The translations under genes were made by a program, and so were the position numbers. Below, piece by piece: positions 10,838 to 47,845 of a stretch of 64,000 nt of DNA. The stretch is taken from NCBI GenBank assembly GCA_030647655.1, contig JAUSJH010000006.1, positions 3,737 through 67,736 of the forward strand, in the 5' to 3' direction. Under the pieces are notes generated by a model. That model was not told where the DNA came from. It searched no databases and saw only the letters and a program-made list of their open reading frames with translations. Numbering within the stretch: position 1 is the first letter of the stretch; each line of letters starts with the position of its first letter. Origin of the DNA: a bacterium (GTDB lineage: Bacteria; Patescibacteriota; Minisyncoccia; Phycocordibacterales; UBA2100).

Positions 10838-10886
10838 CTCGATTCGGCCATATAAAATGGCCTCACTCGTGGCAAGCCACAAAATC

Positions 10887-16602: not shown

Positions 16603-16661
16603 AGAAAGGTTTTGCTCAGGGTCCGTGTCGAGTCTGAGCGTTTTTTCTGTATACTTCGTCT

Positions 16662-20544: not shown

Positions 20545-20548
20545 CTCT

Positions 20549-21970
20549 TTACCAATCTATTTCAAACGACTGTCCTGATTCGGGCACTGTCGCGTCGGTT
20601 CCAAGAAAGTCACGAATGCGTTGCGCGAGAAACATTGACGAGTGTGGTTCGCCCATCGTCACAAAGACGCGTTCAAGCGATTCCCCTGCGCCGTCAACGA
20701 AACGAAGTAACTGGTCGCGATCGGCGTGGCCGGAGTAGCCTGAAAGTGTCTCGATGTGAGCATGGACACGGATGTGTTCCCCGTCTATTTCCACTTTCTT
20801 CTCTCCATCCTGTATGCGCCGCCCCAAAGATCCGGGCACCTGATAGCCGACGAAAAGGACCGTCGCATGTTTATCGCTTAAGTAATATTTTTCATGCGCG
20901 CGGATACGACCGCCTCCGGACATTCCTGCACCTGCAATGATTATCTTTGGATTTGGTGCTTTATGTATGGCCTGCGACTCCACCGTACGAGCCGTGAGAG
21001 TGAGGCTTTTGAAAGAAAAAGGATTACCCCCCTTCCCAAAATGTTCTCGCGCCGCTGGATTTAGAAGATTCTTATACTTTCGAAACACATTGGTAACCTC
21101 TATAGCAAGCGGTGCATCGAGATACACGGAGACTGGTTGCATAATTTCCTCTTCTATCATTGCATTGAGTTCAAAGAGCAACACTTGCGTCCGCTCGATG
21201 GAAAATGACGGAATGAGAAGAACACTACGTCGAGCACGTGCATCTTCAACAAAGCTTCGCAGGTGTTCGCGGCGCTCTTCGCGCTTCTCGTGCATCCTAT
21301 CTCCGTAGACGCTCTCCATAACGATGTAGTTCGCACCTTCCGGAGTCTCCGTATCATTCAATATTGGTTCGGGGGAATTTCCTATATCGCCTGTAAATAA
21401 AACAGATTTTCCGCTGCGACCGCATTTAACCATTGCAGAACCTAGAATGTGTCCGGCATCTAGAAATTCGATTGATACGTCCCCTATGTTGAACGGTTCA
21501 TGATACCCATGCGTTTGCCAGAGCGCTAGAGCATGCCCCACGTCCTCTCTTTCATACAGTATTTCGCATCCATGCCTCTCGACTTCCCTCTGCATGATGC
21601 CAAGCGCGTCATCGAACATGAGCGCTGCGAGATCCTTGGTCGCCGCTGTTGAATATATGGGGCCTTTGAATCCGTCGTGTACAAATCTCGGAATCCTTCC
21701 AATGTGGTCAGCATGCGCGTGTGTGACGACGAGGGCATCTATTTTCTTCGTGTCGTACGGAAAGGGGGCTGCGTTCGCGATATCACATACACGCTCACGC
21801 TGGAGAATGCCGCAATCTATTAATATTTTTTTGCCTAAATCATTCGTCTCTGACGAATGATCGGCCGAACCATCTGCGTTTTGCGCAGATGGTTTTAGGC
21901 CAGTATCCAAAAGAAAGTTCGCCCCTGTCACCGTGCCAGCGCCACCGTAAAATGTTATCCCAGCCGACAT
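20549..21970 (-). CDS. MBL-fold beta-CASP ribonuclease (RNase J-like)
   Basis: HAHADH metallo-beta-lactamase motif (VVTHAHADHIG), beta-CASP region, C-terminal GHADRDQL motif; 473 aa. Confidence 0.75.
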   Translation of the reverse strand: MSAGITFYGGAGTVTGANFLLDTGLKPSAQNADGSADHSSETNDLGKKILIDCGILQRERVCDIANAAPFPYDTKKIDALVVTHAHADHIGRIPRFVHDGFKGPIYSTAATKDLAALMFDDALGIMQREVERHGCEILYEREDVGHALALWQTHGYHEPFNIGDVSIEFLDAGHILGSAMVKCGRSGKSVLFTGDIGNSPEPILNDTETPEGANYIVMESVYGDRMHEKREERREHLRSFVEDARARRSVLLIPSFSIERTQVLLFELNAMIEEEIMQPVSVYLDAPLAIEVTNVFRKYKNLLNPAAREHFGKGGNPFSFKSLTLTARTVESQAIHKAPNPKIIIAGAGMSGGGRIRAHEKYYLSDKHATVLFVGYQVPGSLGRRIQDGEKKVEIDGEHIRVHAHIETLSGYSGHADRDQLLRFVDGAGESLERVFVTMGEPHSSMFLAQRIRDFLGTDATVPESGQSFEIDW

Positions 21971-22178
21971 TGAGCGATTCTAGCACTCTAAACCCCGCCA
22001 AGGGCGGGGCTCAGGGGTGCGGTCAGTACGGCAAGCCTGGGTTTGGACCAGGTGGGTTGCCGCAGCATTTACACCAAAGGCGCAAAGCGATGTAGGCATT
22101 CCCTTTCTTGTACCAAGCAGGTTTAAGTACCGGCCGCTAAAATCAGTATACCACTCTATTTTTCCGTGCAAATGGAAA

Positions 22179-22787
22179 CTACGGAAGAATATTCTCCAAT
22201 TCTTTGTTGTACATTATATCCTCGCGAGTCACTTTGTAGTCTATTATCTCGGCTTTTTTGAACCAGTGCGGTATTTCCATGTCGGCTTCCGAGACAGAGC
22301 CGGATGCGTGGATAAGATTGCGCACCGCGCGGTCGTCTGCGTCCGACATGACATAGGAATCCACGACGAAATCGCCGCGAATAGTGCCCACCGGAGCTCC
22401 ACGTGGTTCGGTGCCGCCGGTAATCTTGCGGACGAGCTCTACCGCGTGCGCGCCCTCCCACACCATACAGATGACGGGACCAGCCGTAAGATATTTCTTG
22501 AGGTTTTTGAGGATTTTCGCGGTTATCTCTAGCGGGTCTTCGGATGGCGGCGTTAATCCGCGGTCGCGATAATTCTTAATCGTCTTTTCTCCCGTCACAC
22601 GGCGCCAATTCGGGTCGAGCGTGTAGTGTCCTTCCACCTGCTCGGCCGTAGGCACCACCATCTTCAATCCGACCAATTTCAATCCAAGCCGCTCGTAGCG
22701 CACGATAATCTCGCCAACGAGTGACCGCTGTATCGCATCGGGCTTGATAATGACAAGCGTCCGCTCTTTTTTGGGGTGGTCTTTCAT
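22179..22787 (-). CDS. ndk: nucleoside diphosphate kinase (long form with insertion)
   Basis: ERTLVIIKPDAIQRSLVGEII..., NLIHASGSVSEA (active-site His region); 202 aa. Confidence 0.8.
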   Translation of the reverse strand: MKDHPKKERTLVIIKPDAIQRSLVGEIIVRYERLGLKLVGLKMVVPTAEQVEGHYTLDPNWRRVTGEKTIKNYRDRGLTPPSEDPLEITAKILKNLKKYLTAGPVICMVWEGAHAVELVRKITGGTEPRGAPVGTIRGDFVVDSYVMSDADDRAVRNLIHASGSVSEADMEIPHWFKKAEIIDYKVTREDIMYNKELENILP

Positions 22788-22860: not shown

Positions 22861-24633
22861 TTAGTAGCAATACGAGGAGCAGTATCCTATCCCGAACATA
22901 GCTGTTGCTTGTCCTGCAGTTGCTTCGTTACCACTGAATAGTATTTGATAATTCTGAAAGTTTCCTCCTGCAAGTTCACTTGGTATCGTCCATGTGAAGC
23001 TGCCGCCTTGTAATCCTGAAGAATATGCGGTGCCAAGCGAACGGTCGATTGAGCCATATGGGATGCCGCCCAATAAGCGTAAAGAGTAACTCTTTACCCC
23101 CACATCAGAGCCTGTCCACGTAATACGGTATGTTTGACCGGCATACAGTTGCGCGCCAGGAGTCGGGAATGTGATTGTAACTGGCTGCACCAGATTGCTC
23201 AAAACTTTTACACGGACCGAATTGCTCGTCCCGTACTGATTCACGACGTACAGGTCATAGCTCTGCCCGACAATAAGCGACGAGGGGACATCCGCATTCA
23301 CCCGGGTCTCGCTCGTCCACGTCACGGTCGCCGGAATACCACTGAAGAACACTTTGGTTGAATCGACCGTAGCAAGATTATTTCCGTAAATCGACACTTC
23401 GCCACCCGCATCTACCTCCAAATTGCCGGCAGCTTTTGCGCTCGTTGAGATGATGACAGGATCGGTACTTGGAGCATTGACGACGGTGAAATAGCCATTG
23501 CTTTCATCGCGAACATTGCCCGTAGTGAGCGCGACCTTGTACTGCCCGCCCGGTAAGAGCTCACCTGTATTTGGACAGACGTAGCCCGGCCCCATATAGA
23601 ACCCGTACGTCCCGGCAGACACCGCAACAGTGCCGATGTTGCACGAGATTGTCGGGGACACAAGAAATACCCCGGCCGATCCTACGACTCCATGCGCTAT
23701 CCAATTCACTCGCAGATCTACATCCTTACCGCTACCGAAGACGAGGGATTCTCCGCCGTTCGGATACGTAATTGTGATAGACGAAGATGTGTCGACGACG
23801 TAATCAGATGTTTCGCCGACATCATAGCAGTAGCGTCCTTGCTCCCCCCTACAGCCGGCCGAATCGCTCCCCGTCCACAAATTCCCTTGTGAGGGCGCGA
23901 CGTCATTATCATAGTCGAGCGCGGAACTTCTGTTTTCGAGACTTGCACCGAGTTCATATCCTCTTCCCCCTCCGAGTTGATCATATGAATATGAGTTGTT
24001 ATCAGAGACATCTATCGGAACGGAGGCAATGTAGTCAGGCGCGAGAAAAGAGGTTGTCGGAGGATACATCCCCTTATCATCGTAGTAGAGCTCCAGCGCG
24101 AGTTGAAGCTGCTTGATATCGGCGATTCGACGCGCATCACGACCTTTTGCCCGCGCCTCGGCGGTATTCTCTGGAATTTCCATGCCGTAACAGAGCCGTG
24201 CCATCGCGGTGCGGGTGCGCGAGCCGACAAAGCCGTAGCCCGTTGAGTCCGGGTCGCCGGAAGATACGACGCCGTGCGCGGCTTGCCAGCGCTGCACCGC
24301 GCGCATCGTTGCAGGGCCGAAGTAGCCAGTGATGCGCGCTTCGGGATAGATTGAGGGGCCATACGAAGCGAGAAATTGTTGGAGTTTGGTAACCTCCCCG
24401 TTGGTGTCTGCATCGGTGTCGTCAACTGAAAGACTATTTGAAAGAGAGACGCACGCTGAAGTACTGGCGGGGGTGGTATTTGCGGGGACACCGAGTTGGG
24501 ACCTTAGAGCGGTGATTTGTGTTAGCAAACTCTGGACTTGAGCCTGCAAGTCGCTCAACGTATCAGAGGAAGCGAAGAGTGGTGACGCGAGAAAGAGAAG
24601 TCCGAGGCCGCCGAAGGCGATTTTTTTAAGCAT
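22861..24633 (-). CDS. secreted coiled-coil / peptidoglycan-binding-domain protein with pseudopilin (GspG-like) domain and beta-rich C-terminal region
   Basis: Signal peptide MLKKIAFGGLGLLFLASPLFA, heptad region LSDLQAQVQSLLTQITALRSQL, PG_binding_1-like VTKLQQFLASYGPSIYP...YFGPATMRAVQRWQ, then RDARRIADIKQLQLALELYYDDKGMYP (type IV pilin/pseudopilin globular-domain signature) without the N-terminal pilin TM helix. Confidence 0.6.
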   Translation of the reverse strand: MLKKIAFGGLGLLFLASPLFASSDTLSDLQAQVQSLLTQITALRSQLGVPANTTPASTSACVSLSNSLSVDDTDADTNGEVTKLQQFLASYGPSIYPEARITGYFGPATMRAVQRWQAAHGVVSSGDPDSTGYGFVGSRTRTAMARLCYGMEIPENTAEARAKGRDARRIADIKQLQLALELYYDDKGMYPPTTSFLAPDYIASVPIDVSDNNSYSYDQLGGGRGYELGASLENRSSALDYDNDVAPSQGNLWTGSDSAGCRGEQGRYCYDVGETSDYVVDTSSSITITYPNGGESLVFGSGKDVDLRVNWIAHGVVGSAGVFLVSPTISCNIGTVAVSAGTYGFYMGPGYVCPNTGELLPGGQYKVALTTGNVRDESNGYFTVVNAPSTDPVIISTSAKAAGNLEVDAGGEVSIYGNNLATVDSTKVFFSGIPATVTWTSETRVNADVPSSLIVGQSYDLYVVNQYGTSNSVRVKVLSNLVQPVTITFPTPGAQLYAGQTYRITWTGSDVGVKSYSLRLLGGIPYGSIDRSLGTAYSSGLQGGSFTWTIPSELAGGNFQNYQILFSGNEATAGQATAMFGIGYCSSYCY

Positions 24634-24742
24634 GATTTTGACCTCTATGGTAATACCGTAAGGGTAACACGTACTGCACTATTGATGCAGCACCACAGGC
24701 TACCGGTAGTCGTCGGGAGGTTAAACCTCCAGAGTTCACTTT

Positions 24743-25915
24743 TTAGTTGGAAATCGTAAACACCCCACTTTCGGCGAGAGTGTCCATTCCTCTGCTGATG
24801 CGAATCTTGTATCTGCCCGGTACAACAGTATTTTCCTTGTTGATAGTACCAGCACCGAGATAGTTGAGCGTTATGCTGGCAGTCCATCCACTGAATTCTG
24901 CTTGCGAACCGTTGTTTAAGCTGCCAACTATTCCTGCTTGAGAACCATCTTCCCGTATAAGATTCAGAACTACCTTATCGCCCTCAGGCCATGTAGCGAT
25001 GACAGGTTCACTCAGCTTAATTATATGCGCCTCGCCGGTCTTCCAACGGTCGCCGGGTATCGGCGAAAGAACGGTAATGCCGTTTTGAGAACTCTCCGTA
25101 ACCGTAAAGGAAACGGAATTACTCCACTTCGACCATGGTTTTACGGAAATCTCGTAGACGCCTGGAGACACAGAAAAATATGATGCGCATGGAAGTCCTG
25201 AATAAGAAGTGTCCTGCTTACAGAACGATGACTGTATTGTTGTCACGATAGTAGTATCGTCGCTACCAGTCCTGTCCCCGTACATAACACCGCTAGAGTA
25301 ATCCGGAGGGTTAAATTCCGTTGCAATACGAGCATTCAGATCACCTTCAAAACCGCGCAGATTTTTGCCTTTGATAGTAATCTTTGTGCCGATAGGACCG
25401 CTCGAAGGAGTTACGCTGTAAATGACGGGGTCTAAAGTGCTATTGCTGGTCGAACCTGAGCCGCATGATTCTGTGATCTTTGCCCGTGTCATCGGACCGA
25501 CGCCGCTTTTGGGTGTTACGAAACCCATGCCGTGGGCTTTTTGCCAACGCATGACCGCCTGCGCGGTGAGATTTCCATAATAGCCAGTGATAGGACCCGT
25601 GTAAACCCCCTGATCTGTGAGAAACTGTTGCAGACGTGACACTTCATCATCGTGCAGTGAGTCGGTAGAACCTATGATTAAATTTCGCGTAATCATCGGG
25701 CACGTCCCCGCACCCGTCGGATTAGACGGGGCAGTTTTCATGGCGGCCATCTGCGCTTTCAACTGGGTGATTTGTGCGAGCAACCCTTGAATTTGCGATT
25801 GTAGTTCCTCAATCGGATTCGTCGTGGCAAGTGCGGGTGTGGCAAGAAAAAGAATTCCCAAAACCGGAAGCGCGAGTTTTTTAAGCATGATGTTTGCCTT
25901 AAGGGTAATGCACAA
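24743..25915 (-). CDS. secreted coiled-coil / peptidoglycan-binding-domain protein
   Basis: Signal MLKKLALPVLGILFLATPALA, IEELQSQIQGLLAQITQLKAQMAAM, VSRLQQFLTDQGVYTGPITGYYGNLTAQAVMRWQ PGBD-like; paralog of 22861..24633. Confidence 0.6.
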   Translation of the reverse strand: MCITLKANIMLKKLALPVLGILFLATPALATTNPIEELQSQIQGLLAQITQLKAQMAAMKTAPSNPTGAGTCPMITRNLIIGSTDSLHDDEVSRLQQFLTDQGVYTGPITGYYGNLTAQAVMRWQKAHGMGFVTPKSGVGPMTRAKITESCGSGSTSNSTLDPVIYSVTPSSGPIGTKITIKGKNLRGFEGDLNARIATEFNPPDYSSGVMYGDRTGSDDTTIVTTIQSSFCKQDTSYSGLPCASYFSVSPGVYEISVKPWSKWSNSVSFTVTESSQNGITVLSPIPGDRWKTGEAHIIKLSEPVIATWPEGDKVVLNLIREDGSQAGIVGSLNNGSQAEFSGWTASITLNYLGAGTINKENTVVPGRYKIRISRGMDTLAESGVFTISN

Positions 25916-25940: not shown

Positions 25941-28766
25941 CTATTGATACAACGATGCGGGCAATTCGGGTTCGAGTGGGTTTGGCGCGGGCTTTTTGCC
26001 GTAGGCGGCGTCGAATTTGCGGCGAATGTCTGCTTCTACCTCTTCTCTATCTTTCCCATACATTTTGTATGAAAGTTCTTTCATCGTGTCTATCTTGCTG
26101 TAATCCATGTGAGGAAGATCGGCAGTTTGGATAGTGAATGGTCGCGCAGGGACGCCATTGACGAGAAGCGCCAAAACCGCGGTTCTGTTCGGCAGATTCT
26201 CAAGATCCTGCTGCGTGAATATCGGCGTAAATTGTTTCTCCAAAAACTCGGCATCTTGCGTGCCTACACGGAACGACGCTTTGGTGCCCACATTTCCGAT
26301 GACCGCGTCGCGGATGTCTTCTTCGAGCTGCGCAATAAATTGATGCGCTATCGTGAGTGAGAGCTTGTATTTGCGGGCCTCGGAGAGAATGGTCGCGATT
26401 GATGGTGTAGCGAAGTTCTGGAACTCGTCGATATAGAGATAAAAGACGGGCAAAAGGTCGCCCCTCGTGTCAACACGCGAGAATGCCGCCTGCAGAAATT
26501 TTGAGACGAGAATAAGACCGAGGAGCGAGGTGTTTCGATCGCCCAAGCGACCTTTCGAGAGATTGGCGAGAAAAATCTTTTTCTTATCCATTATCTCGCG
26601 GAAATTGAACGCGGATTTTTCCTGGCTAACGATAGGCCGCATGATGTCGTTGGTGAGAAAGACGTCGAACTTGCTGGTGATGTAGGGCGCCACGTTCTCA
26701 AGGCTGGGGTCACCTTGCGCCTGTTCGGCAATTTTGCGCCAGAATTGCACGATTATTGGGTTATTGCAGTGGCTAAGCTTTAAATTGCGGAACGCGGTAT
26801 CGGCGAATACACGCGGTATCTCGACGAAAGTACTTCCTGTGTCCGGATCCTCGACGACGAGCTGCACCGCGTTGCGGTAGTATTGCTCGAACATCGGGCC
26901 GAAGGCCTCCGGCACGTCGGCGTAGAGTTTTCTGAAAATGCCATACACTTCGTCCACCACGAATGTCTTCATTTCCGGCTTCGAGCGGTCGTACTCGAGC
27001 ATGTTGAGGCCCATCGGCCGTGCTGTGTATGCAGGGTCAAAATAGATGACGTCTTTCATGCGCTCGGGCGGGATACACGCGAGCACATCCTCGATGTCGT
27101 TGCCGTGCGGATCGATGAAGGCAACTCCTTCGCCGTTCTTTATATCCTGAATAATCATATTCTTGATGAGCCCTGTCTTTCCGGTACCTGTCTGTCCGAT
27201 GACATACGCATGGCGGAGGCGATCCGACGCCCCGAATCGCACCGGCGTCTCGTCGGCGCCGTACTTGTTGATACCGATGGTGATGCCGTCGGCCGGAGTC
27301 TCGACTGGCGCAGGCGCTTGTTTGGCGAAGCTGCGCTTCAACTCGCGTGAGGTCGTGAGGCGCTCGGCGGTGAAATGGAATATCGAGGTCACTTCCGCTA
27401 GCGAGAGCGGCATCGATATCCCGTGGTCGAACTCTCGGTATGTAAAGTCGCGCAGAAAGTTGGCAAGTCCCCAACTTCCGACTTCTTTGAAGATTAAATG
27501 ATTGCCTTTTGCATCATCGTACTGGTTGAAAGGCGCCTCCAGATTACTCAAAAGTTCTTCCGCACGGGCTTTTGTCGGCGCGGACGTGACGAGGCGGATG
27601 GAGACGGGTGCTATGCGCGTTTTTACCTTCTTAGTTACCTCTTCGGTCACCACCTGATCGCTCGAGCGGCGGAATTGTTTTTCCACTTCCATCTCATACT
27701 CCTTCGCCATGAATATTTGTTTTGCCATTGCATAGACCGCTTCTCCAATTTCTGTTTCAGGCACTTTGATGGCCTTGCGGAAATTTTTCCCCTTCTCAAG
27801 TTCCCGAATAATCTTCTTATAGTGATGATTGTACCGATCGCCTTCGGTCGAGACGGTAATCTGTAGCGCCGCCCCCTCCCCGTGTTTTGCTATTTTCGCG
27901 AACGCCGCAAGCAAGACGTTCATCGGATCGTGCTCAAAAAGCTCGGGGGTTTTGAGGGGAAGCGAGGGATGGTCGGCAAGAGTCGCATAGGCGGCAGCAT
28001 GCTCGCCTTCGTAGTTGAAAATGTTGTAATCACCGCGAGATTCGGACATACGCGCGTTGGGAAATACGGATGATATAAGGCGCTCCGCAAGGATCTTTTT
28101 TGCCCGCGGCACGGCGAGGTACAAAAATGCTTCTTCGCTCCCCTCTTGCACTGCGATCTCGAGTGAGAATCCTTCGTGCTTGTCGATGAGGGAGGTGAGG
28201 CCTGCGTAAAGCTGTTCGGAAGATGAGAGGAGCTGTTCGAGCTTGTGCTGTTGATTCTCCTGTTTGTCACCCTCACCAAATGCCTGCGGCTGTATCTCGA
28301 AGAGAACCATGTTGAGTGCGCGGCGAACTTTCTCGGGCGCCTTCATACCGTGGTCCGGCAAGCCTTCTGCGATGTAGCGCACCAAGGCGCGATGCACGTC
28401 GTCCTCGAGGTGCGGATTCTTCATGCGTGCCGCGACCGAAAGTGCGTTCCTTATACCGCTCTGCTGGACCAGTCGCAGTATCTCGTCCACCTGTTTATCG
28501 TGCGTCTCCGGCTCAAGTTTCAAGACCGTGCGCACAATGTCGTGCTCGGCCATAACAACCGTTTCGTGGAGGACGGTCGCCGCAGGAGTGTCCGCATAGG
28601 CGGCAACTTCACGGCGGGCGATACGGTCTTTTTCAAAACGGTTGTCCGGCGCTTCCATCTCGGCCTCTTTCTCGCGCACCCGCTCGCGCAAATAGGCAAG
28701 CTCCTCTTCAGGTGATTTGAATTTCTCTAGAGCCGCATTACGCGGCTTCTCCATCATGGGAGGCAT
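25941..28766 (-). CDS. large P-loop NTPase, VirD4/TraG/TraD (type IV coupling protein)-like ATPase domain with about 500-aa N-terminal extension
   Basis: Walker A GQTGTGKT followed by AFIDPHG / YFDPAY (DP motifs of T4SS-DNA_transf family), Walker B-like YIDEFQNF, RKYKLSLTIAHQFIAQL (TraG-like Q motif); 941 aa, no N-terminal TM helices. Confidence 0.55.
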   Translation of the reverse strand: MPPMMEKPRNAALEKFKSPEEELAYLRERVREKEAEMEAPDNRFEKDRIARREVAAYADTPAATVLHETVVMAEHDIVRTVLKLEPETHDKQVDEILRLVQQSGIRNALSVAARMKNPHLEDDVHRALVRYIAEGLPDHGMKAPEKVRRALNMVLFEIQPQAFGEGDKQENQQHKLEQLLSSSEQLYAGLTSLIDKHEGFSLEIAVQEGSEEAFLYLAVPRAKKILAERLISSVFPNARMSESRGDYNIFNYEGEHAAAYATLADHPSLPLKTPELFEHDPMNVLLAAFAKIAKHGEGAALQITVSTEGDRYNHHYKKIIRELEKGKNFRKAIKVPETEIGEAVYAMAKQIFMAKEYEMEVEKQFRRSSDQVVTEEVTKKVKTRIAPVSIRLVTSAPTKARAEELLSNLEAPFNQYDDAKGNHLIFKEVGSWGLANFLRDFTYREFDHGISMPLSLAEVTSIFHFTAERLTTSRELKRSFAKQAPAPVETPADGITIGINKYGADETPVRFGASDRLRHAYVIGQTGTGKTGLIKNMIIQDIKNGEGVAFIDPHGNDIEDVLACIPPERMKDVIYFDPAYTARPMGLNMLEYDRSKPEMKTFVVDEVYGIFRKLYADVPEAFGPMFEQYYRNAVQLVVEDPDTGSTFVEIPRVFADTAFRNLKLSHCNNPIIVQFWRKIAEQAQGDPSLENVAPYITSKFDVFLTNDIMRPIVSQEKSAFNFREIMDKKKIFLANLSKGRLGDRNTSLLGLILVSKFLQAAFSRVDTRGDLLPVFYLYIDEFQNFATPSIATILSEARKYKLSLTIAHQFIAQLEEDIRDAVIGNVGTKASFRVGTQDAEFLEKQFTPIFTQQDLENLPNRTAVLALLVNGVPARPFTIQTADLPHMDYSKIDTMKELSYKMYGKDREEVEADIRRKFDAAYGKKPAPNPLEPELPASLYQ

Positions 28767-29179: not shown

Positions 29180-30460
29180 TCAAGAAAGGGACTTTGCCCC
29201 GATGTCGCGGCGGAAATGCATGCCTTCGAAATGGATTTTGCCGACCGCTTCGTAGGCACGGTCGAGCGCCTGCTTGAGCGTGCCGCCGACCGCGGAAACC
29301 CCAAGTACTCTGCCGCCGTTTGTATACAAGGTTGAACCTCGTAAAATAGTGCCTGCATGAAATACGACGACACCTTCCACCTTTTCGGCTTCTTCAATTC
29401 CCGTTATCGGGAACCCCTTCTGATACGCGTCCGGATAACCGCCGGATGCCAAGACGATATTTGCCGCAAAGCCGCGATGCCATTCCACCGATTTTTTTAC
29501 CACATCTACCGTGCTATCGACACACGCGTCGAGAAGGTCGAGAAGGTCGGTTTTGAGAAGACGCATGTATACCTGACATTCAGGATCGCCAAAACGTGCG
29601 TTGTATTCCAAAACCTTGAGACCGTCAAGCGTCACTTTGAGACCGGGATACAGAAGTCCCTGGAACTGTATGCTGCGTTTTTTGAGCGCTTCGAAGGTCG
29701 GGATAACGACCGCGCTGTCGATGCCGGTCATCACTTGTGAGGTGACCCACGGCACTGGAGCGATAGCGCCCATCCCGCCGGTATTTTTGCCTTCGTCTCC
29801 ATCAAGCGCGCGCTTGTGATCTTGGGAAGAAGGAAACAGTACGTGCGTAATCCCGTCTGTAAGAGCGTGTATGGATATCTCGGGACCATCGAGATATTCC
29901 TCTATCACAACCTCGTTACCGGCATCTTTGTGTATTTTCTCAATCATTATCTCGGTAATCGCATGCTCGGCCTCTTCGAAACTTCTGCAGATGTACACTC
30001 CCTTCCCTAGCGCAAGCCCACTCGCTTTTATGACGATTGGAAAGCCATGCGTGCGCACATGCGCGAGCGCCGTGTGCGGCTCGCTAAAGAGCGCAAACTC
30101 GGCGGTCGGGATTTTTGCCTCCTGCATCAATTGTTTTGAAAAAGCTTTCGAGCCTTCGATTTGTGCTGCTTCTTTGCTTGGGCCCCAGATGCGCAGTCCG
30201 TGCGACTTGAACACATCAACGATGCCGCCGACCAGCGGATCATCGGGACCGACAACGGTGAGGCCGATTCTCTTCTCTTCCGCGAATCTAGCCAACTTTT
30301 CGAATTCCATCACACTGATATCTACGTTCTCGGCGAGCATTCCTGTACCGCCATTCCCCGGCGCCACGTAGAGTTTGCCAACGCGCGGTGACTGCTTTAA
30401 TTTCCACGCGAGCGCGTGTTCTCTCCCCCCGCTGCCGATTATGAGAACGTCAGTTGCCAT
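29180..30460 (-). CDS. purD: phosphoribosylamine--glycine ligase
   Basis: MATDVLIIGSGGREHALAWKL... and ATP-grasp region; full length. Confidence 0.85.
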   Translation of the reverse strand: MATDVLIIGSGGREHALAWKLKQSPRVGKLYVAPGNGGTGMLAENVDISVMEFEKLARFAEEKRIGLTVVGPDDPLVGGIVDVFKSHGLRIWGPSKEAAQIEGSKAFSKQLMQEAKIPTAEFALFSEPHTALAHVRTHGFPIVIKASGLALGKGVYICRSFEEAEHAITEIMIEKIHKDAGNEVVIEEYLDGPEISIHALTDGITHVLFPSSQDHKRALDGDEGKNTGGMGAIAPVPWVTSQVMTGIDSAVVIPTFEALKKRSIQFQGLLYPGLKVTLDGLKVLEYNARFGDPECQVYMRLLKTDLLDLLDACVDSTVDVVKKSVEWHRGFAANIVLASGGYPDAYQKGFPITGIEEAEKVEGVVVFHAGTILRGSTLYTNGGRVLGVSAVGGTLKQALDRAYEAVGKIHFEGMHFRRDIGAKSLS

Positions 30461-30998
30461 GCGCTTCAATATACCGCATCGCATCCTTCGGAGTATCTGC
30501 AAAATATATTAACTCATCCAACGGGAGCGGAATCTTTGCACTTCTCAGGAACCCTTCTTTTTCCATTTTCTCAAGTTGCTGTTTTAATCCTTCGTAGAAG
30601 CTACCGGTACTAAGAATGACGATGGGCTTTTTGTGAACACCGTGTTTCTTAAGTTCGAGTACTTCGGTCACTTCGTCCAGAGTCCCGATGCCTCCGACCA
30701 TCGCCACGATGGCATCCGCGCGTTCCAGCATCGCCTCTCGACGTTCTCCGAGAGTCTTGGCAATAATCATTTCATCAGCATTCCTTCGTGTGTGTTCTTT
30801 GAGAAATTCAACAGATATACCAACTATTTTTCCGCCCGCGTCTTGTACGCCAGAAGCAATCACCTTCATTATTCCCTTGTCTGAACCGCCCCAAACAAGC
30901 GTGTGTCCATGCTCACCGAGAAGTTTCGCGAACTCCGCCGCTGGCTTTGTATATTTCTCCGCAATCTCGCTCGCCGAGCAGAAAACGCAAATGTTCAT
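30450..30998 (-). CDS. LOG family protein (cytokinin riboside 5'-monophosphate phosphoribohydrolase-like, TIGR00730)
   Basis: VFCSAS, VWGGSDKGIMK (GGxxGxMG), MVGGIGTLDEV (PGGxGTxEE) motifs. Confidence 0.7.
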   Translation of the reverse strand: MNICVFCSASEIAEKYTKPAAEFAKLLGEHGHTLVWGGSDKGIMKVIASGVQDAGGKIVGISVEFLKEHTRRNADEMIIAKTLGERREAMLERADAIVAMVGGIGTLDEVTEVLELKKHGVHKKPIVILSTGSFYEGLKQQLEKMEKEGFLRSAKIPLPLDELIYFADTPKDAMRYIEAHGN

Positions 30999-31023
30999 GG
31001 GCGCATTCTACTCTATTCTTTCG

Positions 31024-31449
31024 TTAAAATCTCCGATCGTAGTAGTTGAGAAAGACCGTCAGAAGTTTAGGATTAGCAAGTCCATAGATGTAACGGCTAG
31101 TCGGTTCTCCCTTGGAATCCGGGATTTGGACCCAACCAGCACGCTTGCCGTACATACCGACCGCTAAAGGGTTCTGATCGGGTTCAACTGCATCGCCCAA
31201 AAGGATCGGTTCTCCAGACTCTCTGCTGATCCTTTCAACTTCGGCCATCAACTGGGATGCCAAACCTTTTCCTTGGTCCTTTTTTCCCACCCAGAGGAAG
31301 TGGGCAACGTAGTGCGGGACTGGAAACATGTTTTTGCTAAGGGAGATAGTCCCAGATATCGATTCGCTCCCAAATTTCTTTATCTGGATTTTGTTCCCCA
31401 TTCGTTCTATTTCTCCAAATTCCTTTTGTATAGGAAGTGCTTCATTCAT
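31024..31449 (-). CDS. GNAT family N-acetyltransferase (putative)
   Basis: Motif A-like KDQGKGLASQLM; 141 aa; overlaps map by 8 nt. Confidence 0.45.
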   Translation of the reverse strand: MNEALPIQKEFGEIERMGNKIQIKKFGSESISGTISLSKNMFPVPHYVAHFLWVGKKDQGKGLASQLMAEVERISRESGEPILLGDAVEPDQNPLAVGMYGKRAGWVQIPDSKGEPTSRYIYGLANPKLLTVFLNYYDRRF

Positions 31450-32215
31450 ACTTTGTCAAAATCTCCGGGCCGTTTTTTGTGACAAGAACTGTGTGCTCGG
31501 CGTGTGCGGTGCGCGAGCCGTCTTTCGTGCGGTATGAATAGCCGTCTTTATCTATGAAAAGCTCGCCGCTTCCAAGCGTCATCATGGGCTCGATTGCGAT
31601 TATTAATCCTTCGACGAGTTTTGCTCCTTTTCCTCGCTCACCGAAGTTGGGCACATGCGGCTCTTCATGCACCTTGATACCGACGCCATGACCTGAAAGA
31701 TTCTTGGGATAGCCGAAGTGATATTTCTCGGCGATTTTTTGCACCGCATAGCCGATGTCGCCAGTTGCATTCCCCACTTTCGCCTGTGCGATGCCCGTGG
31801 CGAGTGCTTCATAGGTGCCTCTGACCAACTCTTCGTCACGCGGGTCACGTCTGGTACCGGCGATCACAGTCACCGCGTGATCGGTATAGAATCCTTTGTG
31901 CTTAATGCCAAAGTCGAGACATACGACATCTCCATCGTGAATAACCGCATCATTGTCGCTTGCGGGAGAGTGCACAATCACATCGTTCACTGAAACACAG
32001 AGGCCCGATGGGTACGGTTTGTCCCCCTTGCGCTCCGTGTGACCAAAGAACGCGAGCGTGTCACCATCTGCTTTCACAAGTTCGCGCGCCTTATCCTCAA
32101 GCTCGCGCGAAGTGACGCCCGGCGCGACGAGCTCGGAGAGAATGCGCAGATGCCGCGCGAGACGCCTGCCGCCTTCGCGCAGTGCATCGATTTCTGCTTT
32201 GGTTTTCGCAATCAT
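31442..32215 (-). CDS. map: type I methionine aminopeptidase
   Basis: HDGDVVCLDFG...GHGVGIKVHEEP...IAIEPM metal-binding residues. Confidence 0.85.
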   Translation of the reverse strand: MIAKTKAEIDALREGGRRLARHLRILSELVAPGVTSRELEDKARELVKADGDTLAFFGHTERKGDKPYPSGLCVSVNDVIVHSPASDNDAVIHDGDVVCLDFGIKHKGFYTDHAVTVIAGTRRDPRDEELVRGTYEALATGIAQAKVGNATGDIGYAVQKIAEKYHFGYPKNLSGHGVGIKVHEEPHVPNFGERGKGAKLVEGLIIAIEPMMTLGSGELFIDKDGYSYRTKDGSRTAHAEHTVLVTKNGPEILTKYE

Positions 32216-32802
32216 TGCGCCAATCCTAACACCGAGAGGATATTTTTATGGATAGACTCTACATCCGGTTCACCATCAATCTCGTGGATCAATCTACCAC
32301 GACTTTTCAAAAGTTCGAGTTGCGGCACAACGTCGGTTTTTGTCCACGCGAGGCGTCTGCGTATCGCTTCTTCTGTATCATCGTTGCGCCCGCGTGCGAG
32401 AAGACGCGTAACTGCTGTATCGTCGGAAATGACGAGGTTCACAATTTGTAAGTCCTCGCGCTTGAAAAACTTAACCATGTCATCGAATCCTCTCGTCTGG
32501 TCCTCTCCACGAGCCAATCCGTCGGCGATAACATGTTCTTCTCCGGTGAAATTATCGACAAGTTTCTTTGTTTGGAGATAGATTGCCATAAAATCATAGA
32601 TGCGAATCCCGTTGTCTATGATTTCCCCGGTCAATTTCCCCGCGTATGTTCCCGTATCGCGTAAATTGCGAAGCTCTTGCCCCATGTCGATACGAATGAT
32701 GACGCGGTTGGATTTCGATTGAAGGTACTCAATGAGCATCTTCACTTGCGTTCCCTTGCCAGCTCCCTGTGAGCCAAAAAATAACACGGTGAGCGGTTTC
32801 AT
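32212..32802 (-). CDS. adk: adenylate kinase
   Basis: MKPLTVLFFGSQGAGKGTQ P-loop from the internal Met; the upstream part of the listed ORF is Arg-rich junk. Confidence 0.8.
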   Translation of the reverse strand: MKPLTVLFFGSQGAGKGTQVKMLIEYLQSKSNRVIIRIDMGQELRNLRDTGTYAGKLTGEIIDNGIRIYDFMAIYLQTKKLVDNFTGEEHVIADGLARGEDQTRGFDDMVKFFKREDLQIVNLVISDDTAVTRLLARGRNDDTEEAIRRRLAWTKTDVVPQLELLKSRGRLIHEIDGEPDVESIHKNILSVLGLAQ

Positions 32803-32804
32803 GT

Positions 32805-33395
32805 TTAGAGATTGTATCCTTCTTTGCGCATTATATCCACGACATCGTGCACGGTGTCCTCGAGCTTTCCATTGGCATTTACGACGCGGTAATCGTACTG
32901 CGGCGCGTGCACGCGCAACTCCTCTTCGGTCACTTTCATGCGCGCTTGAAATTCGGCTTCCGACCACTCCGGAGAGCGCGTGTGCAGGCGGCCTCTAAAT
33001 TGTTCGAGGGACTCGGGCATGATGAAGATGGTGGTTGCTCCATAGCGCTCTTTCAAGAGCCGCGCGCCTTCGATGTCTACTTGTGCGAAAATGATTTTCC
33101 CCTCTTGTATCTTCTTTTCGAGGTCCGGCAGGTAGGTGCCGTAATACGTATTGAGCGCAGGCACAAAGCGGTGTTCTGGGATGTTGCCTGACGCAAGCTC
33201 CGCATCGAATTGCTCCTGCGAGAGAAAATAATAGTCCACTCCCTCGCGTTCGGCTGGGCGCATGGAGCGGGTCGTCGCTGTCACGAGACGCACGCAATTG
33301 CGGTAGCGTTTGAGTATCTCATTGATGACCGCGTTTTTTCCAGAGCCCGAAGGACCTGCGATGACAACGACCTGTTTACCAGATGCCGCGTTCAT
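32805..33395 (-). CDS. gmk: guanylate kinase
   Basis: VVVIAGPSGSGKNAV...TTRSMRPAEREGVDYYF motifs. Confidence 0.85.
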   Translation of the reverse strand: MNAASGKQVVVIAGPSGSGKNAVINEILKRYRNCVRLVTATTRSMRPAEREGVDYYFLSQEQFDAELASGNIPEHRFVPALNTYYGTYLPDLEKKIQEGKIIFAQVDIEGARLLKERYGATTIFIMPESLEQFRGRLHTRSPEWSEAEFQARMKVTEEELRVHAPQYDYRVVNANGKLEDTVHDVVDIMRKEGYNL

Positions 33396-33400
33396 TGCGG

Positions 33401-34675
33401 TTAATACTCTCTGATGGAGGTCTGCGCGTCAACCTTTTTGACGACGTCGAGTACGACTGAAACGACGATGAGGAGCGCTGTACCGCCGATTGTTATCGCG
33501 GTGATACCTGTCAGCCCCTGAAGAATGATGGGCAAGACGGCGAGCACACCGAGAAATAAAGCGCCGACGAGCGTGATGCGTGTAATAATGTTGCCGAGAT
33601 ATTCGGCTGTGGTGCCGCCTGGCCGGACTCCGGGAATAAAGGCGCCATTCTTCTGCAGATTTTTAGCGACCTGATTGGGCTCGAACGTAATCGCAGTGTA
33701 GAAGTAGGTAAAGACGAAGACAAGGAAAAAATAGAGGGCTCCGTAGACCCACGTGTTGGCAAGCGCCGCAACTACTGCGTTCGCACCAGAGGCAACGAAG
33801 GCAATGGGGCTTTTCGTAAGGAAGGTGGCGATCATCTGCGGGAAGAGAAGTATCGAGAGCGCGAAGATAATGGGAATAACTCCTGCCTGATTCACGCGAA
33901 GCGGGAGGTACGTGGAAATTCCGCCCAGGACCTTGGTCCCGCGAACACGCCGTGCATAGGTCACAGGTATCGGGCGTTCAGCCTCCGTGATAAAGACGAC
34001 GCCCGCGATGATGACCGCGGCGGCGGCGGTGAACGCAATGTAGAGAGGAATCTGCGAAACTTCGAATGAAAAGATGAGCTGGGCAAAAGCCGATGGAAGA
34101 GCGGCAACGATTCCGGCAAAGATGAGCAGTGATATACCGTTACCCACACCAAATTCCGAAATGAGCTCGCCAATCCACATGAGAAGAATGGCTCCGGCCG
34201 CGATAACGGTGACATTCGTGATGAAGCCAAGCGTCGTCAGAGAAGATACGATGCCGTTCTGCTGAAGGAGCAAAAGAAATCCGAACGCTTGAACGAACGC
34301 GAGCGGCACCGAGAGGTAACGCGAGTACTGCACGAACCTCTGTCGGCCGGCATCCCCCTCTTCCTGATACATCTCTTTTAATTTCGGAATAAGAATGGTC
34401 ATAAGCTGCATCACGATCGAAGATGTGATGTACGGAGAAACACCGATCATCATGATGGATAGATTGGAAAAGCCGCCTCCCGAGAATATATTGAGAAGAC
34501 CGAGGAATTGGTTGTTGCTCAAGAATGCTTCAAGCTGAAGGGCATTGATTCCGGGGATAGGAATGGTCGCGAGAAAGCGGAAAACAATGAGAGCGCCGAA
34601 AACGAAAAGGATGCGCGAGCGTAAACCCTCGTCTTCGAAGATGAGCTTTACTTTACGAAGAAATGTTTCCCACAT
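33401..34675 (-). CDS. secY: preprotein translocase subunit SecY
   Basis: Ten TM helices and conserved motifs (GINALQLEAF, GVSPYITSSI); directly downstream of rplO. Confidence 0.92.
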   Translation of the reverse strand: MWETFLRKVKLIFEDEGLRSRILFVFGALIVFRFLATIPIPGINALQLEAFLSNNQFLGLLNIFSGGGFSNLSIMMIGVSPYITSSIVMQLMTILIPKLKEMYQEEGDAGRQRFVQYSRYLSVPLAFVQAFGFLLLLQQNGIVSSLTTLGFITNVTVIAAGAILLMWIGELISEFGVGNGISLLIFAGIVAALPSAFAQLIFSFEVSQIPLYIAFTAAAAVIIAGVVFITEAERPIPVTYARRVRGTKVLGGISTYLPLRVNQAGVIPIIFALSILLFPQMIATFLTKSPIAFVASGANAVVAALANTWVYGALYFFLVFVFTYFYTAITFEPNQVAKNLQKNGAFIPGVRPGGTTAEYLGNIITRITLVGALFLGVLAVLPIILQGLTGITAITIGGTALLIVVSVVLDVVKKVDAQTSIREY

Positions 34676-46149: not shown

Positions 46150-46150
46150 A

Positions 46151-47809: not shown

Positions 47810-47845
47810 AACTCCCGAAACAACGGTAAGGTGCCGCGGCGCAAT

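What the first reader, a model, noticed from the sequence alone, without database searches (positions are those of the whole stretch)
25941..28766. 941-aa VirD4/TraG-like P-loop ATPase with long N-terminal extension adjacent to the PGBD protein cluster
The C-terminal about 440 aa carry Walker A GQTGTGKT, DP-rich segments (AFIDPHG, YFDPAY), YIDEFQNF and RKYKLSLTIAHQFIAQL that resemble type IV coupling proteins. There are no N-terminal TM helices and a 500-aa alpha-rich N-terminal region precedes the ATPase. Type IV secretion-like and pilus systems are thought important for CPR episymbiosis. A soluble T4CP-like ATPase next to surface-protein genes may be part of a non-canonical secretion or DNA-uptake apparatus whose other parts lie outside the window.
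Basis: partly seen in the sequence, partly recalled or inferred. Interest (0 to 1): 0.55.

Follow-up and report, generated by a model that had tools for sequence, protein, structure and literature searches.

The report
Core soluble VirB4/VirD4-hybrid ATPase of Patescibacteria
This gene encodes a membrane-anchor-free motor ATPase related to those of type IV secretion systems; it is inherited as a strongly conserved housekeeping gene next to the ribosomal-protein operon in these ultra-small bacteria, its apparent counterpart in the one genetically tractable relative is essential, and its link to the neighbouring cell-wall-binding genes is accidental.

Summary
The ORF is real: 25941-28766 on the minus strand, 941 aa, with every quoted motif and no TM helix. 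It belongs to a very large Patescibacterial family (Pfam DUF8128 + TraG-D_C). It has three modules. Residues 1-140 are helical and are a separate upstream gene in other classes. Residues 143-485 are an alpha/beta domain whose only structural match is the N-domain of VirB4. Residues 490-925 are a TrwB/VirD4-like motor with invariant Walker motifs.

It is not mobile-element cargo. In Kaiserbacteria and other Paceibacteria it lies in the array SecY-Adk-Map-[ATPase]-Ndk-beta-CASP. Its motor is as conserved as SecY.

The two PG-binding genes beside it fill a variable slot. Relatives with 89-91% identical ATPases have a toxin-antitoxin pair or nothing there.

No T4SS gene occurs in the window or among conserved neighbours in about 90 related loci.

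By seven-gene synteny, the Saccharibacterial counterpart is SEML1_0142 of Southlakia epibionticum. Published Tn-seq scores it essential, and that organism also has a canonical FtsK.

Best reading (about 0.45): a ring translocase that serves as the "missing" coupling ATPase of the essential, relaxase-less chromosomal T4SS. Main rival (about 0.35): an essential translocase that works without the T4SS.

The parts
25941..28766 (-). Whole gene, 941 aa plus stop; DUF8128 + TraG-D_C family ATPase
   Evidence: ORF list and translation. More than 1100 homologues, the best 75-91% identical over full length, with precomputed PF26449 + PF12696. PF26449 is named DUF8128.
28347..28766 (-). Module 1, aa 1-140: all-helical N-terminal module. 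In other Patescibacterial classes it is a separate ~140-aa gene immediately upstream of a shorter (~790 aa) ATPase.
   Evidence: AF2 secondary structure. A conserved upstream ~140-aa neighbour occurs in 16 short-form loci, on the same strand, with gaps of 3-184 nt. hhalign of the long-form N-terminus against that neighbour family: probability 97.2%, E 3.6e-11, 118 columns. Pairwise BLASTP E 4e-4.
27312..28340 (-). Module 2, aa 143-485: alpha/beta domain (DUF8128 region) with a fold like the VirB4 N-terminal domain
   Evidence: The domain modelled alone has pLDDT 87.3 and pTM 0.86. In Foldseek against PDB the top 14 hits are all R388 TrwK/VirB4 (E 4e-7 to 1e-4, TMq 0.44-0.47); the next hit is unrelated (E 8e-4, TM 0.31). 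In BFVD it matches phage G gp156 (TM 0.63) and gp155 (TM 0.50), the latter carrying a VirB4-type AAA_10/TraG P-loop C-domain. No sequence-level match to VirB4 or to anything solved.
25992..27299 (-). Module 3, aa 490-925: TrwB/VirD4-type RecA-fold ATPase
   Evidence: Pfam and NCBIfam hits. Foldseek to TrwB E 1e-11, TMt 0.64; Cag-beta 1e-9; HerA 1e-10. Profile against PDB sequences: TrwB 1.4e-6, DotL 6.6e-6, HerA 5e-3. Identity is 86-96% within Kaiserbacteria and about 60% across Paceibacteria orders, equal to SecY and S5.
27174..27197 (-). Walker A, GQTGTGKT (aa 524-531)
   Evidence: Position. G524, G527, G529 and K530 are invariant in 15 and in 59 diverse homologues.
26418..26441 (-). Walker B, YLYIDEFQ (aa 776-783), followed by the invariant SEARKY (R798, K799) and HQ (H808, Q809)
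   Evidence: Position. D780, E781, R798, K799 and Q809 are invariant in both alignments; H808 is invariant in A2 and nearly invariant in A1.
26655..26975 (-). All-helical insertion (aa ~598-704) in the position of the TrwB all-alpha domain
   Evidence: Six consecutive helices in the model. The global structural alignment to TrwB covers about 450 columns. Assignment as the AAD equivalent is an inference.
25944..25994 (-). Low-confidence, probably disordered C-terminal tail (aa 925-941, ...KKPAPNPLEPELPASLYQ)
   Evidence: pLDDT below 50 for residues 924-941. Any role as an interaction tail, as in F TraD, is speculation.
22861..25915 (-). NOT part of the system: two PG_binding_1 + TIG/Ig surface-protein genes occupying a variable slot between the ATPase and ndk
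   Evidence: Pfam. They are absent from the same slot in relatives: L092 has a 73-aa ORF plus a YafQ toxin; L093, L006 and L007 have nothing; L004 has a 131-aa ORF. tblastn finds them beside the ATPase in none of the other loci.
29180..34675 (-). Conserved upstream frame on the same strand: SecY, Gmk, Adk, Map, (GNAT, LOG/SLOG), PurD
   Evidence: Pfam and NCBIfam. SecY-Adk-Map lies upstream of the ATPase in 15-20 of the Paceibacteria species loci.
19843..22787 (-). Conserved downstream frame on the same strand: Ndk, beta-CASP RNase, SLOG
   Evidence: Pfam. The Ndk and beta-CASP families lie downstream in 21 and 19 of the species loci.

Best explanation
What it is (shown). The gene encodes a vertically inherited, cytoplasmic ATPase of the type-IV-secretion ATPase lineage. 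It has three modules: a helical N-module, a VirB4-N-domain-like alpha/beta domain (Pfam DUF8128), and a TrwB/VirD4-like motor with an all-helical insertion and intact catalytic motifs. It has no membrane anchor. It is a core gene of Paceibacteria sitting at the tail of the ribosomal spc operon. The PG-binding genes beside it are unrelated cargo in a variable slot.

How it most likely works (inferred). Like TrwB and VirB4, it assembles into a ring that uses ATP to thread a polymer through its central channel. It has no TM helices, so the VirB4-like N-domain would dock it onto membrane partners. The helical N-module, fused here and a separate gene elsewhere, would act as adaptor or regulator. 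Its most probable job is that of the 'missing' coupling or energising ATPase of the chromosomal, relaxase-less Patescibacterial T4SS, which is encoded elsewhere (near dnaA according to the literature).
For: Identity and architecture: Pfam, NCBIfam and PDB profile hits to T4CPs. In Foldseek the full-length model matches full-length VirB4 best (E 2e-15, about 910 columns), then TrwB (TMt 0.64). The N-domain alone matches only VirB4. Fusion/fission of the N-module is shown. Catalytic residues are invariant.

Core-gene status: the SecY-Adk-Map-[X]-Ndk-beta-CASP synteny is kept at 45-50% protein identity across Nomura-, Taylor- and other Paceibacteria. The motor is as conserved as SecY and S5. There are 5071 50%-identity clusters at E<1e-30 and at least 600 matching stretches in the species-representative genome set.

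Link to the T4SS: Patescibacteria carry a chromosomal T4SS. Most such clusters have no relaxase, and the T4CP homologues are rarely next to virB4 (148 of 5,713) (PMC12102498). In S. epibionticum the T4SS is essential and 'lacks recognizable coupling and relaxase proteins' (PMC10633639).

Essentiality: SEML1_0142 (a 1019-aa TraM-recognition-domain ATPase) and the small ORF before it are scored essential. SEML1_0142 sits in the same array, L20-L35-IF3-YifB ... ATPase-GyrB-GyrA-PAP2, as the Saccharibacterial DUF8128 proteins P0480 and P0456. The Saccharibacterial clade that includes them is ~33% identical to the window protein and groups beside the Paceibacteria clade in a rough NJ tree. That organism has its own essential canonical FtsK, so the ATPase is not just an FtsK substitute.
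Against: The gene is never found beside T4SS genes: none in the window and none among conserved neighbours of about 90 loci. T4CP-like proteins occur in 2,918 of 3,035 Patescibacterial genomes but VirB4 in only 2,417, so at least 500 genomes have one without the other. It was not shown that those counts include this family.

Homologues with the same N-domain are core genes of SPO1-like and other Bacillus phages, which have no T4SS. The N-domain likeness to VirB4 is at fold level only, with TM about 0.47.

The small ORFs upstream in Saccharibacteria show no significant homology to the N-module. No oligomer or partner prediction could be run.
Confidence: 0.45

Rival explanations
1. A T4SS-independent, essential housekeeping translocase. 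A soluble ring ATPase acts on chromosomal DNA or another nucleic acid (replication-, repair- or segregation-associated processing, or handling of imported DNA for nucleotide salvage). Only its ancestry lies with conjugation ATPases.
For: The synteny is purely housekeeping and the conservation matches SecY. In other classes the gene sits next to DNA-metabolism genes: gyrB-gyrA directly downstream in Saccharibacteria; dnaX downstream in 7 loci; uvrB and rmuC in several. Nucleotide kinases (Adk, Gmk, Ndk; Cmk and an AA_kinase-family gene in L009) surround it in Paceibacteria. T4CP-like proteins are more widespread than VirB4. Relatives occur in phages without a T4SS, one of them followed by a Replic_Relax protein. 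TrwB, FtsK and HerA relatives are DNA pumps (established knowledge).
Against: Gene neighbourhood among housekeeping genes may be inherited order rather than functional linkage. A canonical essential FtsK and XerC already exist in S. epibionticum, so the obvious segregation role is taken. The best sequence and fold matches are T4SS ATPases, not FtsK or HerA. The VirB4-like N-domain is, in VirB4, a membrane-complex docking module.
Confidence: 0.35
2. One reading: the ATPase works together with the adjacent PG-binding/Ig-domain surface proteins as part of one non-canonical secretion or DNA-uptake apparatus.
For: The genes are adjacent and on the same strand in this window. PG-binding and Ig-fold proteins are discussed as host-adhesion factors in Patescibacteria (PMC10936435).
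Against: The adjacency is strain-specific. Relatives with 89-91% identical ATPases carry a toxin-antitoxin pair or nothing in that slot, and none of the other ~90 loci has PG-binding genes beside the ATPase.
Confidence: 0.05
3. A mobile-element or defence gene: a conjugative coupling protein of an integrated element, a prophage gene (phrog_5156), or a defence ATPase (MADS mad8-like).
For: phrog_5156 E 3.4e-66 over aa 152-918. PADLOC mad8 E 9.5e-14. Plasmid and phage homologues at 21-35% identity.
Against: No relaxase, integrase, T4SS or phage structural gene lies nearby. The position in the ribosomal-operon region is fixed across orders. Conservation equals SecY. GC content is unremarkable. 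Defence and mobile genes do not behave like this. The apparent orthologue is essential.
Confidence: 0.03

Closest known systems
Type IV coupling proteins (VirD4 / TrwB / TraD / TraG; Pfam PF02534, PF10412, PF12696)
   Same: The C-terminal 430 aa share the RecA-type nucleotide-binding fold with a helical insertion, the Walker A/B motifs and the 'TraM-recognition' region. These are the best sequence-profile matches among solved structures (TrwB, DotL), and the TM-score to TrwB is 0.64.
   Different: There is no N-terminal transmembrane anchor. An extra ~480 aa (helical module plus VirB4-like domain) precede the motor. The gene is not encoded with a relaxase or T4SS. It is a syntenic core gene with SecY-level conservation. 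It falls far below all NCBIfam T4CP cut-offs (52.9 bits against 366).
VirB4 / TrwK (R388) T4SS ATPase
   Same: The overall two-domain plan is the same: a ~350-aa alpha/beta N-domain plus a TrwB-like C-domain, with no TM helix. Full-length VirB4 is the best structural match of the full-length model, and the only match of the N-domain alone.
   Different: There is no sequence-level match to VirB4 models (TIGR00929 scores 23 bits against 643; PF03135 and AAA_10 are not hit). The TM-score is only about 0.47. No VirB2/VirB3/VirB6/VirB8 neighbours are present. Patescibacteria have a separate bona fide VirB4 near dnaA (PMC12102498; SEML1_0008).
[quoted passage not shown]
   Same: The annotation matches: a ~380-aa N-region precedes the P-loop domain, and a small ORF lies directly upstream. 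Its seven-gene neighbourhood is identical to that of the Saccharibacterial DUF8128 proteins, whose clade is ~33% identical to the window protein.
   Different: It is longer (1019 aa, with a C-terminal extension) and lies next to gyrBA rather than the spc operon. Its upstream ORF could not be shown to be homologous to the N-module.
Bacillus phage proteins of phrog_5156 (phage G gp156, SPO1 gp27.4, CP-51/JL/Shanette homologues) and the Clostridium botulinum plasmid 800-aa 'ATP-binding protein'
   Same: They show the same N-domain fold (TM 0.63) and the same N-domain-plus-motor layout over aa ~190-915.
   Different: Identity is only 21-24%. They sit on mobile genomes with conjugation-like partners: gp155 (VirB4-like C-domain) in phage G, a Replic_Relax protein after SPO1 gp27.4, and a TrbC/VirB2-like ORF (just below Pfam's cut-off) before the C. 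botulinum gene. Their function is unknown.
FtsK/SpoIIIE and HerA DNA translocases
   Same: They belong to the same P-loop superfamily of ring translocases. HerA is a secondary structural and profile hit.
   Different: There is no FtsK alpha/beta/gamma domain, 4TM region or HAS-barrel. DUF87 scores 20.5 bits, below its cut-off of 23.2, and PF01580 is not hit. A canonical FtsK coexists with the family in S. epibionticum.

Membership tests
VirD4-type coupling protein (T4CP) | TrwB/TraG-type P-loop nucleotide-binding domain | tested here: met
   PF12696 scores 30.1 bits (cut-off 22). PF10412 scores 20.4 (cut-off 20.5) here and 28.1 in homologue P0101. Profile against TrwB 1.4e-6. Foldseek to TrwB TMt 0.64.
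VirD4-type coupling protein (T4CP) | N-terminal transmembrane anchor | tested here: not met
   The maximum 19-residue hydropathy is 1.39, and that window lies inside the ATPase core. The model shows a soluble N-terminus.
VirD4-type coupling protein (T4CP) | Encoded with a T4SS (virB4) and/or a relaxase | tested here: not met
   No such gene is in the 64-kb window or among conserved neighbours of about 90 related loci.
VirD4-type coupling protein (T4CP) | Passes curated full-length T4CP models (NCBIfam TraD / VirD4-like) | tested here: not met
   SXT_TraD 52.9 bits against 366; CD1115 35.9 against 250; TOL_TraD 34.9 against 647.
VirD4-type coupling protein (T4CP) | Hexameric ring with DNA- or substrate-stimulated ATPase activity | not testable with these tools
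   No multimer prediction or biochemistry was available.
VirB4 | Two-domain soluble architecture: VirB4 N-domain plus TrwB-like C-domain | tested here: inconclusive
   Fold-level support only. Full-length model against TrwK: E 2e-15 over ~910 columns but TM 0.27-0.31. N-domain alone: top 14 hits are TrwK, with TMq 0.44-0.47.
VirB4 | Sequence match to VirB4 models (TIGR00929, PF03135, PF12846) | tested here: not met
   TIGR00929 scores 23 bits against 643. No PF03135 or PF12846 hit. The N-domain profile finds no VirB4 in PDB or NCBIfam.
VirB4 | Adjacent VirB2/VirB3/VirB6/VirB8-type genes | tested here: not met
   None was found. The 60-aa two-TM ORF upstream (28834-29016) has no room to exist in relatives L004, L006 and L093.
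Pfam DUF8128 (PF26449) + TraG-D_C proteins | Match to PF26449 in the N-terminal half | tested here: inconclusive
   A scan of the local Pfam copy returned no PF26449 hit, even for homologues that carry the precomputed hit, so the local copy probably lacks the model. Nearly all homologues at 75-92% identity carry a precomputed PF26449 hit. Membership is therefore by proxy and very likely.
FtsK/SpoIIIE | FtsK alpha/beta motor (PF01580), gamma domain, 4TM region | tested here: not met
   No hit was obtained.
HerA | DUF87/HerA central domain above cut-off, with a HAS-barrel | tested here: not met
   DUF87 scores 20.5 bits, below the 23.2 cut-off, and only around the P-loop. HerA ranks below TrwB in the profile and fold searches.

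The most novel reading that the evidence does not exclude
This family is a third, unrecognised lineage of T4SS-type motor: a VirB4-like N-domain joined to a VirD4-like motor, with no membrane anchor. It would be vertically inherited and essential across Patescibacteria. It would be the missing engine of their essential, relaxase-less T4SS, possibly running in the import direction to pull host nucleic acid in for nucleotide salvage. That would fit its position among nucleotide kinases in Paceibacteria and beside gyrase in Saccharibacteria.
Probability: 0.2. Interest if true: 0.85.

Novelty: new variant of a known kind. Interest (0 to 1): 0.6.

Why it matters
Patescibacteria (CPR) depend on hosts. 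In the one species with genome-wide genetics, a T4SS of unknown function is essential yet "lacks a recognizable coupling protein". A 2025 survey counted thousands of T4CP-like genes scattered away from virB4. It suggested they may be exapted and cited a non-essential copy.

The present analysis shows that one of these families has four notable properties:
- It is structurally a VirB4/VirD4 hybrid without a membrane anchor.
- It is a syntenic core gene as conserved as SecY.
- It exists as a fused or a split two-gene unit.
- By synteny, it corresponds to a gene that published Tn-seq scores as essential (SEML1_0142), a different gene from the non-essential copy (SEML1_0293).

This gives a concrete candidate, testable in a system where genetics already exists, for how the Patescibacterial T4SS is powered, or for a new essential translocase.

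Tried and rejected
- Sequence-level tests of the N-domain against PDB sequences and NCBIfam found nothing, so the VirB4 likeness stays at fold level.
- The local Pfam copy returned no PF26449 hit, even for homologues that carry the precomputed one. No paper mentions DUF8128.
- The 60-aa two-TM ORF upstream (28834-29016) was considered as a VirB3-like partner. It was rejected because purD abuts the ATPase in L004, L006 and L093.
- The FtsK-replacement idea was weakened because S. epibionticum has a canonical essential FtsK and XerC.
- Homology between the Saccharibacterial upstream small ORFs and the N-module is not significant. hhalign E is about 0.1, although the local match falls in the expected motif region.
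- Prophage, plasmid and defence origins (phrog_5156, mad8) were rejected on synteny and conservation.
- Cluster names gave no taxonomy for the ~1000-aa representatives.
- An apparent second ATPase copy in many loci was a clustering artefact: Map was linked through an overlapping ORF call.
- Promoter and terminator scans around the gene were at chance level.
- The tree is a plain NJ tree without support values. It is used only as a hint.
Full report
OBSERVATION. An ATG-started ORF of 941 codons occupies 25941-28766, but on the minus strand. The most hydrophobic 19-residue window scores only 1.39 on the Kyte-Doolittle scale and lies inside the ATPase core, so there is no TM helix. The gene is real. 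More than 1100 homologues were scored, and the best 120 are full length (about 930-950 aa) and 75-91% identical. Where named, they come from Candidatus Kaiserbacteria or Paceibacterota.

FAMILY ASSIGNMENT. Pfam gives TraG-D_C above its cut-off (30.1 bits against 22). TrwB_AAD_bind falls on the cut-off (20.4 against 20.5), and DUF87 and T4SS-DNA_transf fall below theirs. NCBIfam gives only partial, far sub-threshold matches to TraD and VirD4-like models. A profile of 15 diverse members hits TrwB (1.4e-6) and DotL (6.6e-6) ahead of HerA (5e-3) among solved structures, and does not find VirB4. Homologues carry a precomputed PF26449 hit, which the context tool names DUF8128. A scan of the local Pfam copy did not return it, even for homologues that carry the precomputed hit, so the local copy probably lacks the model. 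No paper in the library mentions DUF8128.

The family is very large. An exhaustive HMMER scan found 20,484 50%-identity clusters at E<1e-3 and 5,071 at E<1e-30. At least 600 stretches in the species-representative genome set match it, and the best 80 are almost all Patescibacteria: Nomura-, Taylor-, Zambryski-, Portnoy-, Wolfe-, Moranii- and Uhrbacteria among others.

ANATOMY. An AF2 model built on 59 sequences has mean pLDDT 82.6. It shows three modules rather than one "alpha-rich extension".

Module 1 (aa 1-135) is all-helical. In a shorter form of the protein (about 790 aa, starting at the equivalent of aa ~145), found in other Patescibacterial classes, this module is missing. Instead, a ~140-aa gene sits immediately upstream on the same strand in 16 loci. 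Profile-profile comparison shows that gene to be homologous to aa 17-140 of the long form (hhalign probability 97.2%, E 3.6e-11). The Paceibacteria protein is therefore a fusion of a two-gene unit.

Module 2 (aa 143-485) is a mixed alpha/beta domain. Modelled alone it has pLDDT 87 and pTM 0.86. Its top 14 PDB matches are all chains of R388 TrwK/VirB4 (E 4e-7 to 1e-4, TM 0.44-0.47), and the next hit is unrelated. The full-length model also matches full-length VirB4 best (E 2e-15, about 910 aligned columns), ahead of TrwB (E 1e-11, TM 0.64 over the motor). The same N-domain fold occurs in Bacillus phage proteins: phage G gp156 and phage JL at TM 0.63, and phage G gp155 at TM 0.50. The C-terminal half of gp155 is VirB4-type by Pfam (AAA_10, TraG P-loop). 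At sequence level the N-domain matches nothing known.

Module 3 (aa 490-925) is the TrwB-like motor, with a six-helix insertion (aa ~598-704) where TrwB has its all-alpha domain. The Walker A glycines and lysine, Walker B D780/E781, and R798, K799 and Q809 are invariant across 59 sequences that are 40-92% identical to the window protein. The last 17 residues are modelled with low confidence.

GENOMIC CONTEXT. In the window the gene lies in a long co-directional array: ribosomal proteins, SecY, Gmk, Adk, Map, a GNAT protein, a LOG/SLOG protein, PurD, the ATPase, two PG_binding_1+TIG genes, Ndk, a beta-CASP RNase and a SLOG protein. Relatives keep the frame SecY-Adk-Map ... ATPase ... Ndk-beta-CASP. 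This holds not only in Kaiserbacteria but also in Nomurabacteria and other Paceibacteria whose ATPases are only 45-50% identical. Among the species-representative loci, the Adk, SecY, Ndk and beta-CASP families flank the ATPase in 20, 18, 21 and 19 loci respectively, and in many of them Map directly precedes the ATPase.

The two PG-binding genes are not part of this frame. In L092 (ATPase 91% identical) the slot holds a 73-aa ORF and a YafQ toxin. In L093 (89%) and in L006/L007 it holds nothing. In L004 it holds a 131-aa ORF. The slot between purD and the ATPase also varies, so the 60-aa two-TM ORF at 28834-29016 is not a conserved partner.

The short form lives elsewhere. Its recurrent neighbours are DnaX, UvrB, RmuC, a PBP transpeptidase, a Mur ligase, CysS, an FtsE-like ABC ATPase and PMT-type glycosyltransferases. 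No VirB4, VirB6, pilin, relaxase or type IV pilus gene appears in the window or among these conserved neighbours.

CONSTRAINT. Measured against the same set of relatives, the motor domain is 86-96% identical within Kaiserbacteria and 58-63% across orders. That equals SecY (78-87% and 58-65%) and S5, and exceeds Map, Adk, L15 and beta-CASP. The N-domain is less constrained, at about 34% across orders. This is the signature of a core cellular function, not of a mobile-element coupling protein.

LINK TO EXPERIMENT. Quinonero-Coronel et al. 2025 (PMC12102498) found VirB4 in 2,417 of 3,035 Patescibacterial genomes. They found 5,713 VirD4-type T4CP homologues in 2,918 genomes, only 148 of them near virB4. 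They noted that the T4CP homologue of S. epibionticum is non-essential and may be exapted.

The Tn-seq tables of Wang et al. 2023 (PMC10633639) list two such genes. SEML1_0293 (921 aa; PF10412, PF12696, PF01935; preceded by a sigma factor) is non-essential. [quoted passage not shown] The 139-aa ORF directly upstream of it, SEML1_0141, has no insertions.

I could not obtain the sequence of SEML1_0142, but its neighbourhood is L20(-), L35(-), IF3(-), YifB(-), small ORFs(+), ATPase(+), [two inserted genes], GyrB(+), GyrA(+), PAP2(+). This is the same array that surrounds the Saccharibacterial DUF8128 proteins P0480 and P0456; the shorter contig that carries P0198 shows part of it. Their clade is Saccharibacterial, about 33% identical to the window protein over 780 columns, and falls next to the Paceibacteria clade in a rough NJ tree. 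The sigma-linked type groups outside, with a proteobacterial plasmid protein. The inference is that the window's family corresponds to the essential copy.

Wang et al. also state that the essential Se T4SS lacks recognizable coupling and relaxase proteins. Their tables show a canonical, essential FtsK and a XerC.

MECHANISM. Shown: the domain architecture, the intact catalytic motifs, the lack of a membrane anchor, the core-gene synteny, the strong constraint, and the accidental nature of the PG-binding adjacency.

Inferred: a ring-shaped ATP-driven translocase (by homology with TrwB and VirB4) that is recruited through its VirB4-like N-domain rather than by TM helices, with the helical N-module as adaptor or regulator.

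I favour, at about 0.45, a role as the coupling or energising ATPase of the chromosomal relaxase-less T4SS encoded elsewhere. The reasons are that its closest relatives are T4SS ATPases, the T4SS lacks a recognised T4CP, and both the T4SS and the apparent orthologue are essential in an organism that already has FtsK.

The main rival, at about 0.35, is an essential translocase independent of the T4SS. It is supported by four points: the gene is never found near T4SS genes; T4CP-like genes are more widespread than VirB4; the neighbours recurrently include DNA-metabolism genes (gyrBA, dnaX, uvrB, rmuC) and nucleotide kinases; and phage homologues exist without any T4SS.

NOVELTY. The family is already catalogued (Pfam DUF8128; PGAP names such as "TraM recognition domain-containing protein") and is probably included in published T4CP counts. 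New, as far as the searched literature shows, are four things: the hybrid VirB4-N-domain/VirD4-motor architecture without an anchor, the fused-versus-split N-module, the deep housekeeping synteny with SecY-level conservation, and the correspondence with an essential gene of S. epibionticum distinct from the non-essential T4CP-like copy. I rate it a new variant of a known kind, with interest 0.6.

Noticed in passing
window 22861-25915 (slot between the ATPase and ndk); L092 10893-11377; L093 10820-10857: The intergenic slot between the ATPase and ndk is a hot spot for variable cargo. It holds two PG_binding_1+TIG surface-protein genes here, a 73-aa ORF plus a YafQ toxin in a relative whose ATPase is 91% identical, and nothing in one whose ATPase is 89% identical.
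   Followed up: yes
literature: PMC12102498 versus PMC10633639 Table S1 (SEML1_0142, SEML1_0293): The 2025 survey says the T4CP homologue of S. epibionticum is non-essential. The Tn-seq table lists two T4CP-like genes: SEML1_0293 is non-essential, but SEML1_0142 and its upstream ORF SEML1_0141 are scored essential.
   Followed up: partly
L094 1558-4116 and 6001-9237: Two DUF8128 ATPase paralogues (852 aa and 1078 aa) lie 1.9 kb apart on one contig, separated by a 170-aa ORF and a sigma-70-like gene. The sigma-then-ATPase order resembles SEML1_0294/0293.
   Followed up: partly
L090 (Bacillus phage G) 2231-6373; L091 (SPO1) 2747-6284; L003 (C. botulinum plasmid) 6441-9241: Distant homologues on mobile genomes come with conjugation-like partners. 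Phage G gp155 (AAA_10/TraG P-loop with the same N-domain fold) lies in tandem with gp156. SPO1 gp27.4 is followed by a Replic_Relax protein (gp27.3). The C. botulinum gene is preceded by a TrbC/VirB2-like 133-aa ORF (27.7 bits, just under Pfam's 27.9 cut-off).
   Followed up: partly
window 28834-29016 (-): A 60-aa ORF with two hydrophobic helices lies in the 413-bp gap between purD and the ATPase. A 10-bp perfect inverted repeat (TGTCCGACCG...CGGTCGGACA) lies just upstream of the ATPase start. The ORF has no room to exist in several relatives.
   Followed up: partly
window 55481-57780 (-): A YcaO cyclodehydratase (520 aa) is adjacent to a nitroreductase-family protein (252 aa). This is the enzyme pair of a thiazole/oxazole-modified peptide (TOMM-type RiPP) cluster. 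No precursor peptide was looked for.
   Followed up: no
window 44698-49732 (-): Three large consecutive ORFs (483, 552 and 464 aa) have no Pfam match. They are wedged next to the start of the S10/L3-L4 ribosomal operon and are followed by a TPR protein and a DUF4143/AAA_14 ATPase.
   Followed up: no
window 15307-17903 (+): Two consecutive ORFs (431 and 413 aa) have no Pfam match. They lie between a staphylococcal-nuclease-like gene and IF3.
   Followed up: no
window 2190-2264 (-) and 10456-10838 (+): ARAGORN calls a tRNA-Ile with anticodon TAT, which is uncommon in bacteria. It also calls a tmRNA with tag peptide ANKVARAVLSPIQVSDLQFAYALA.
   Followed up: no
window 20549-21970 (-): The conserved downstream beta-CASP/MBL RNase scores 388 bits against the NCBIfam 'type VII CRISPR-associated Cas14' model (cut-off 800) and 292 bits against archaeal aCPSF1. 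It is a syntenic partner of the ATPase-Ndk block in 19 of the species loci.
   Followed up: no
window 29180-34675 and loci L008-L049: In these Paceibacteria the spc operon tail SecY-Adk-Map is followed by this ATPase and Ndk. From general knowledge, most bacteria have infA-rpmJ-rpsM-rpsK-rpsD-rpoA there. In some genomes nucleotide kinases (Gmk, Cmk and an AA_kinase-family gene that may be PyrH) are interleaved.
   Followed up: partly
window 62326-63864 (-): Another surface-type protein carries four PKD domains and a weak N-terminal PG_binding_1 match. It shows that PG-binding/Ig-like genes are scattered through this genome rather than specific to the ATPase locus.
   Followed up: no
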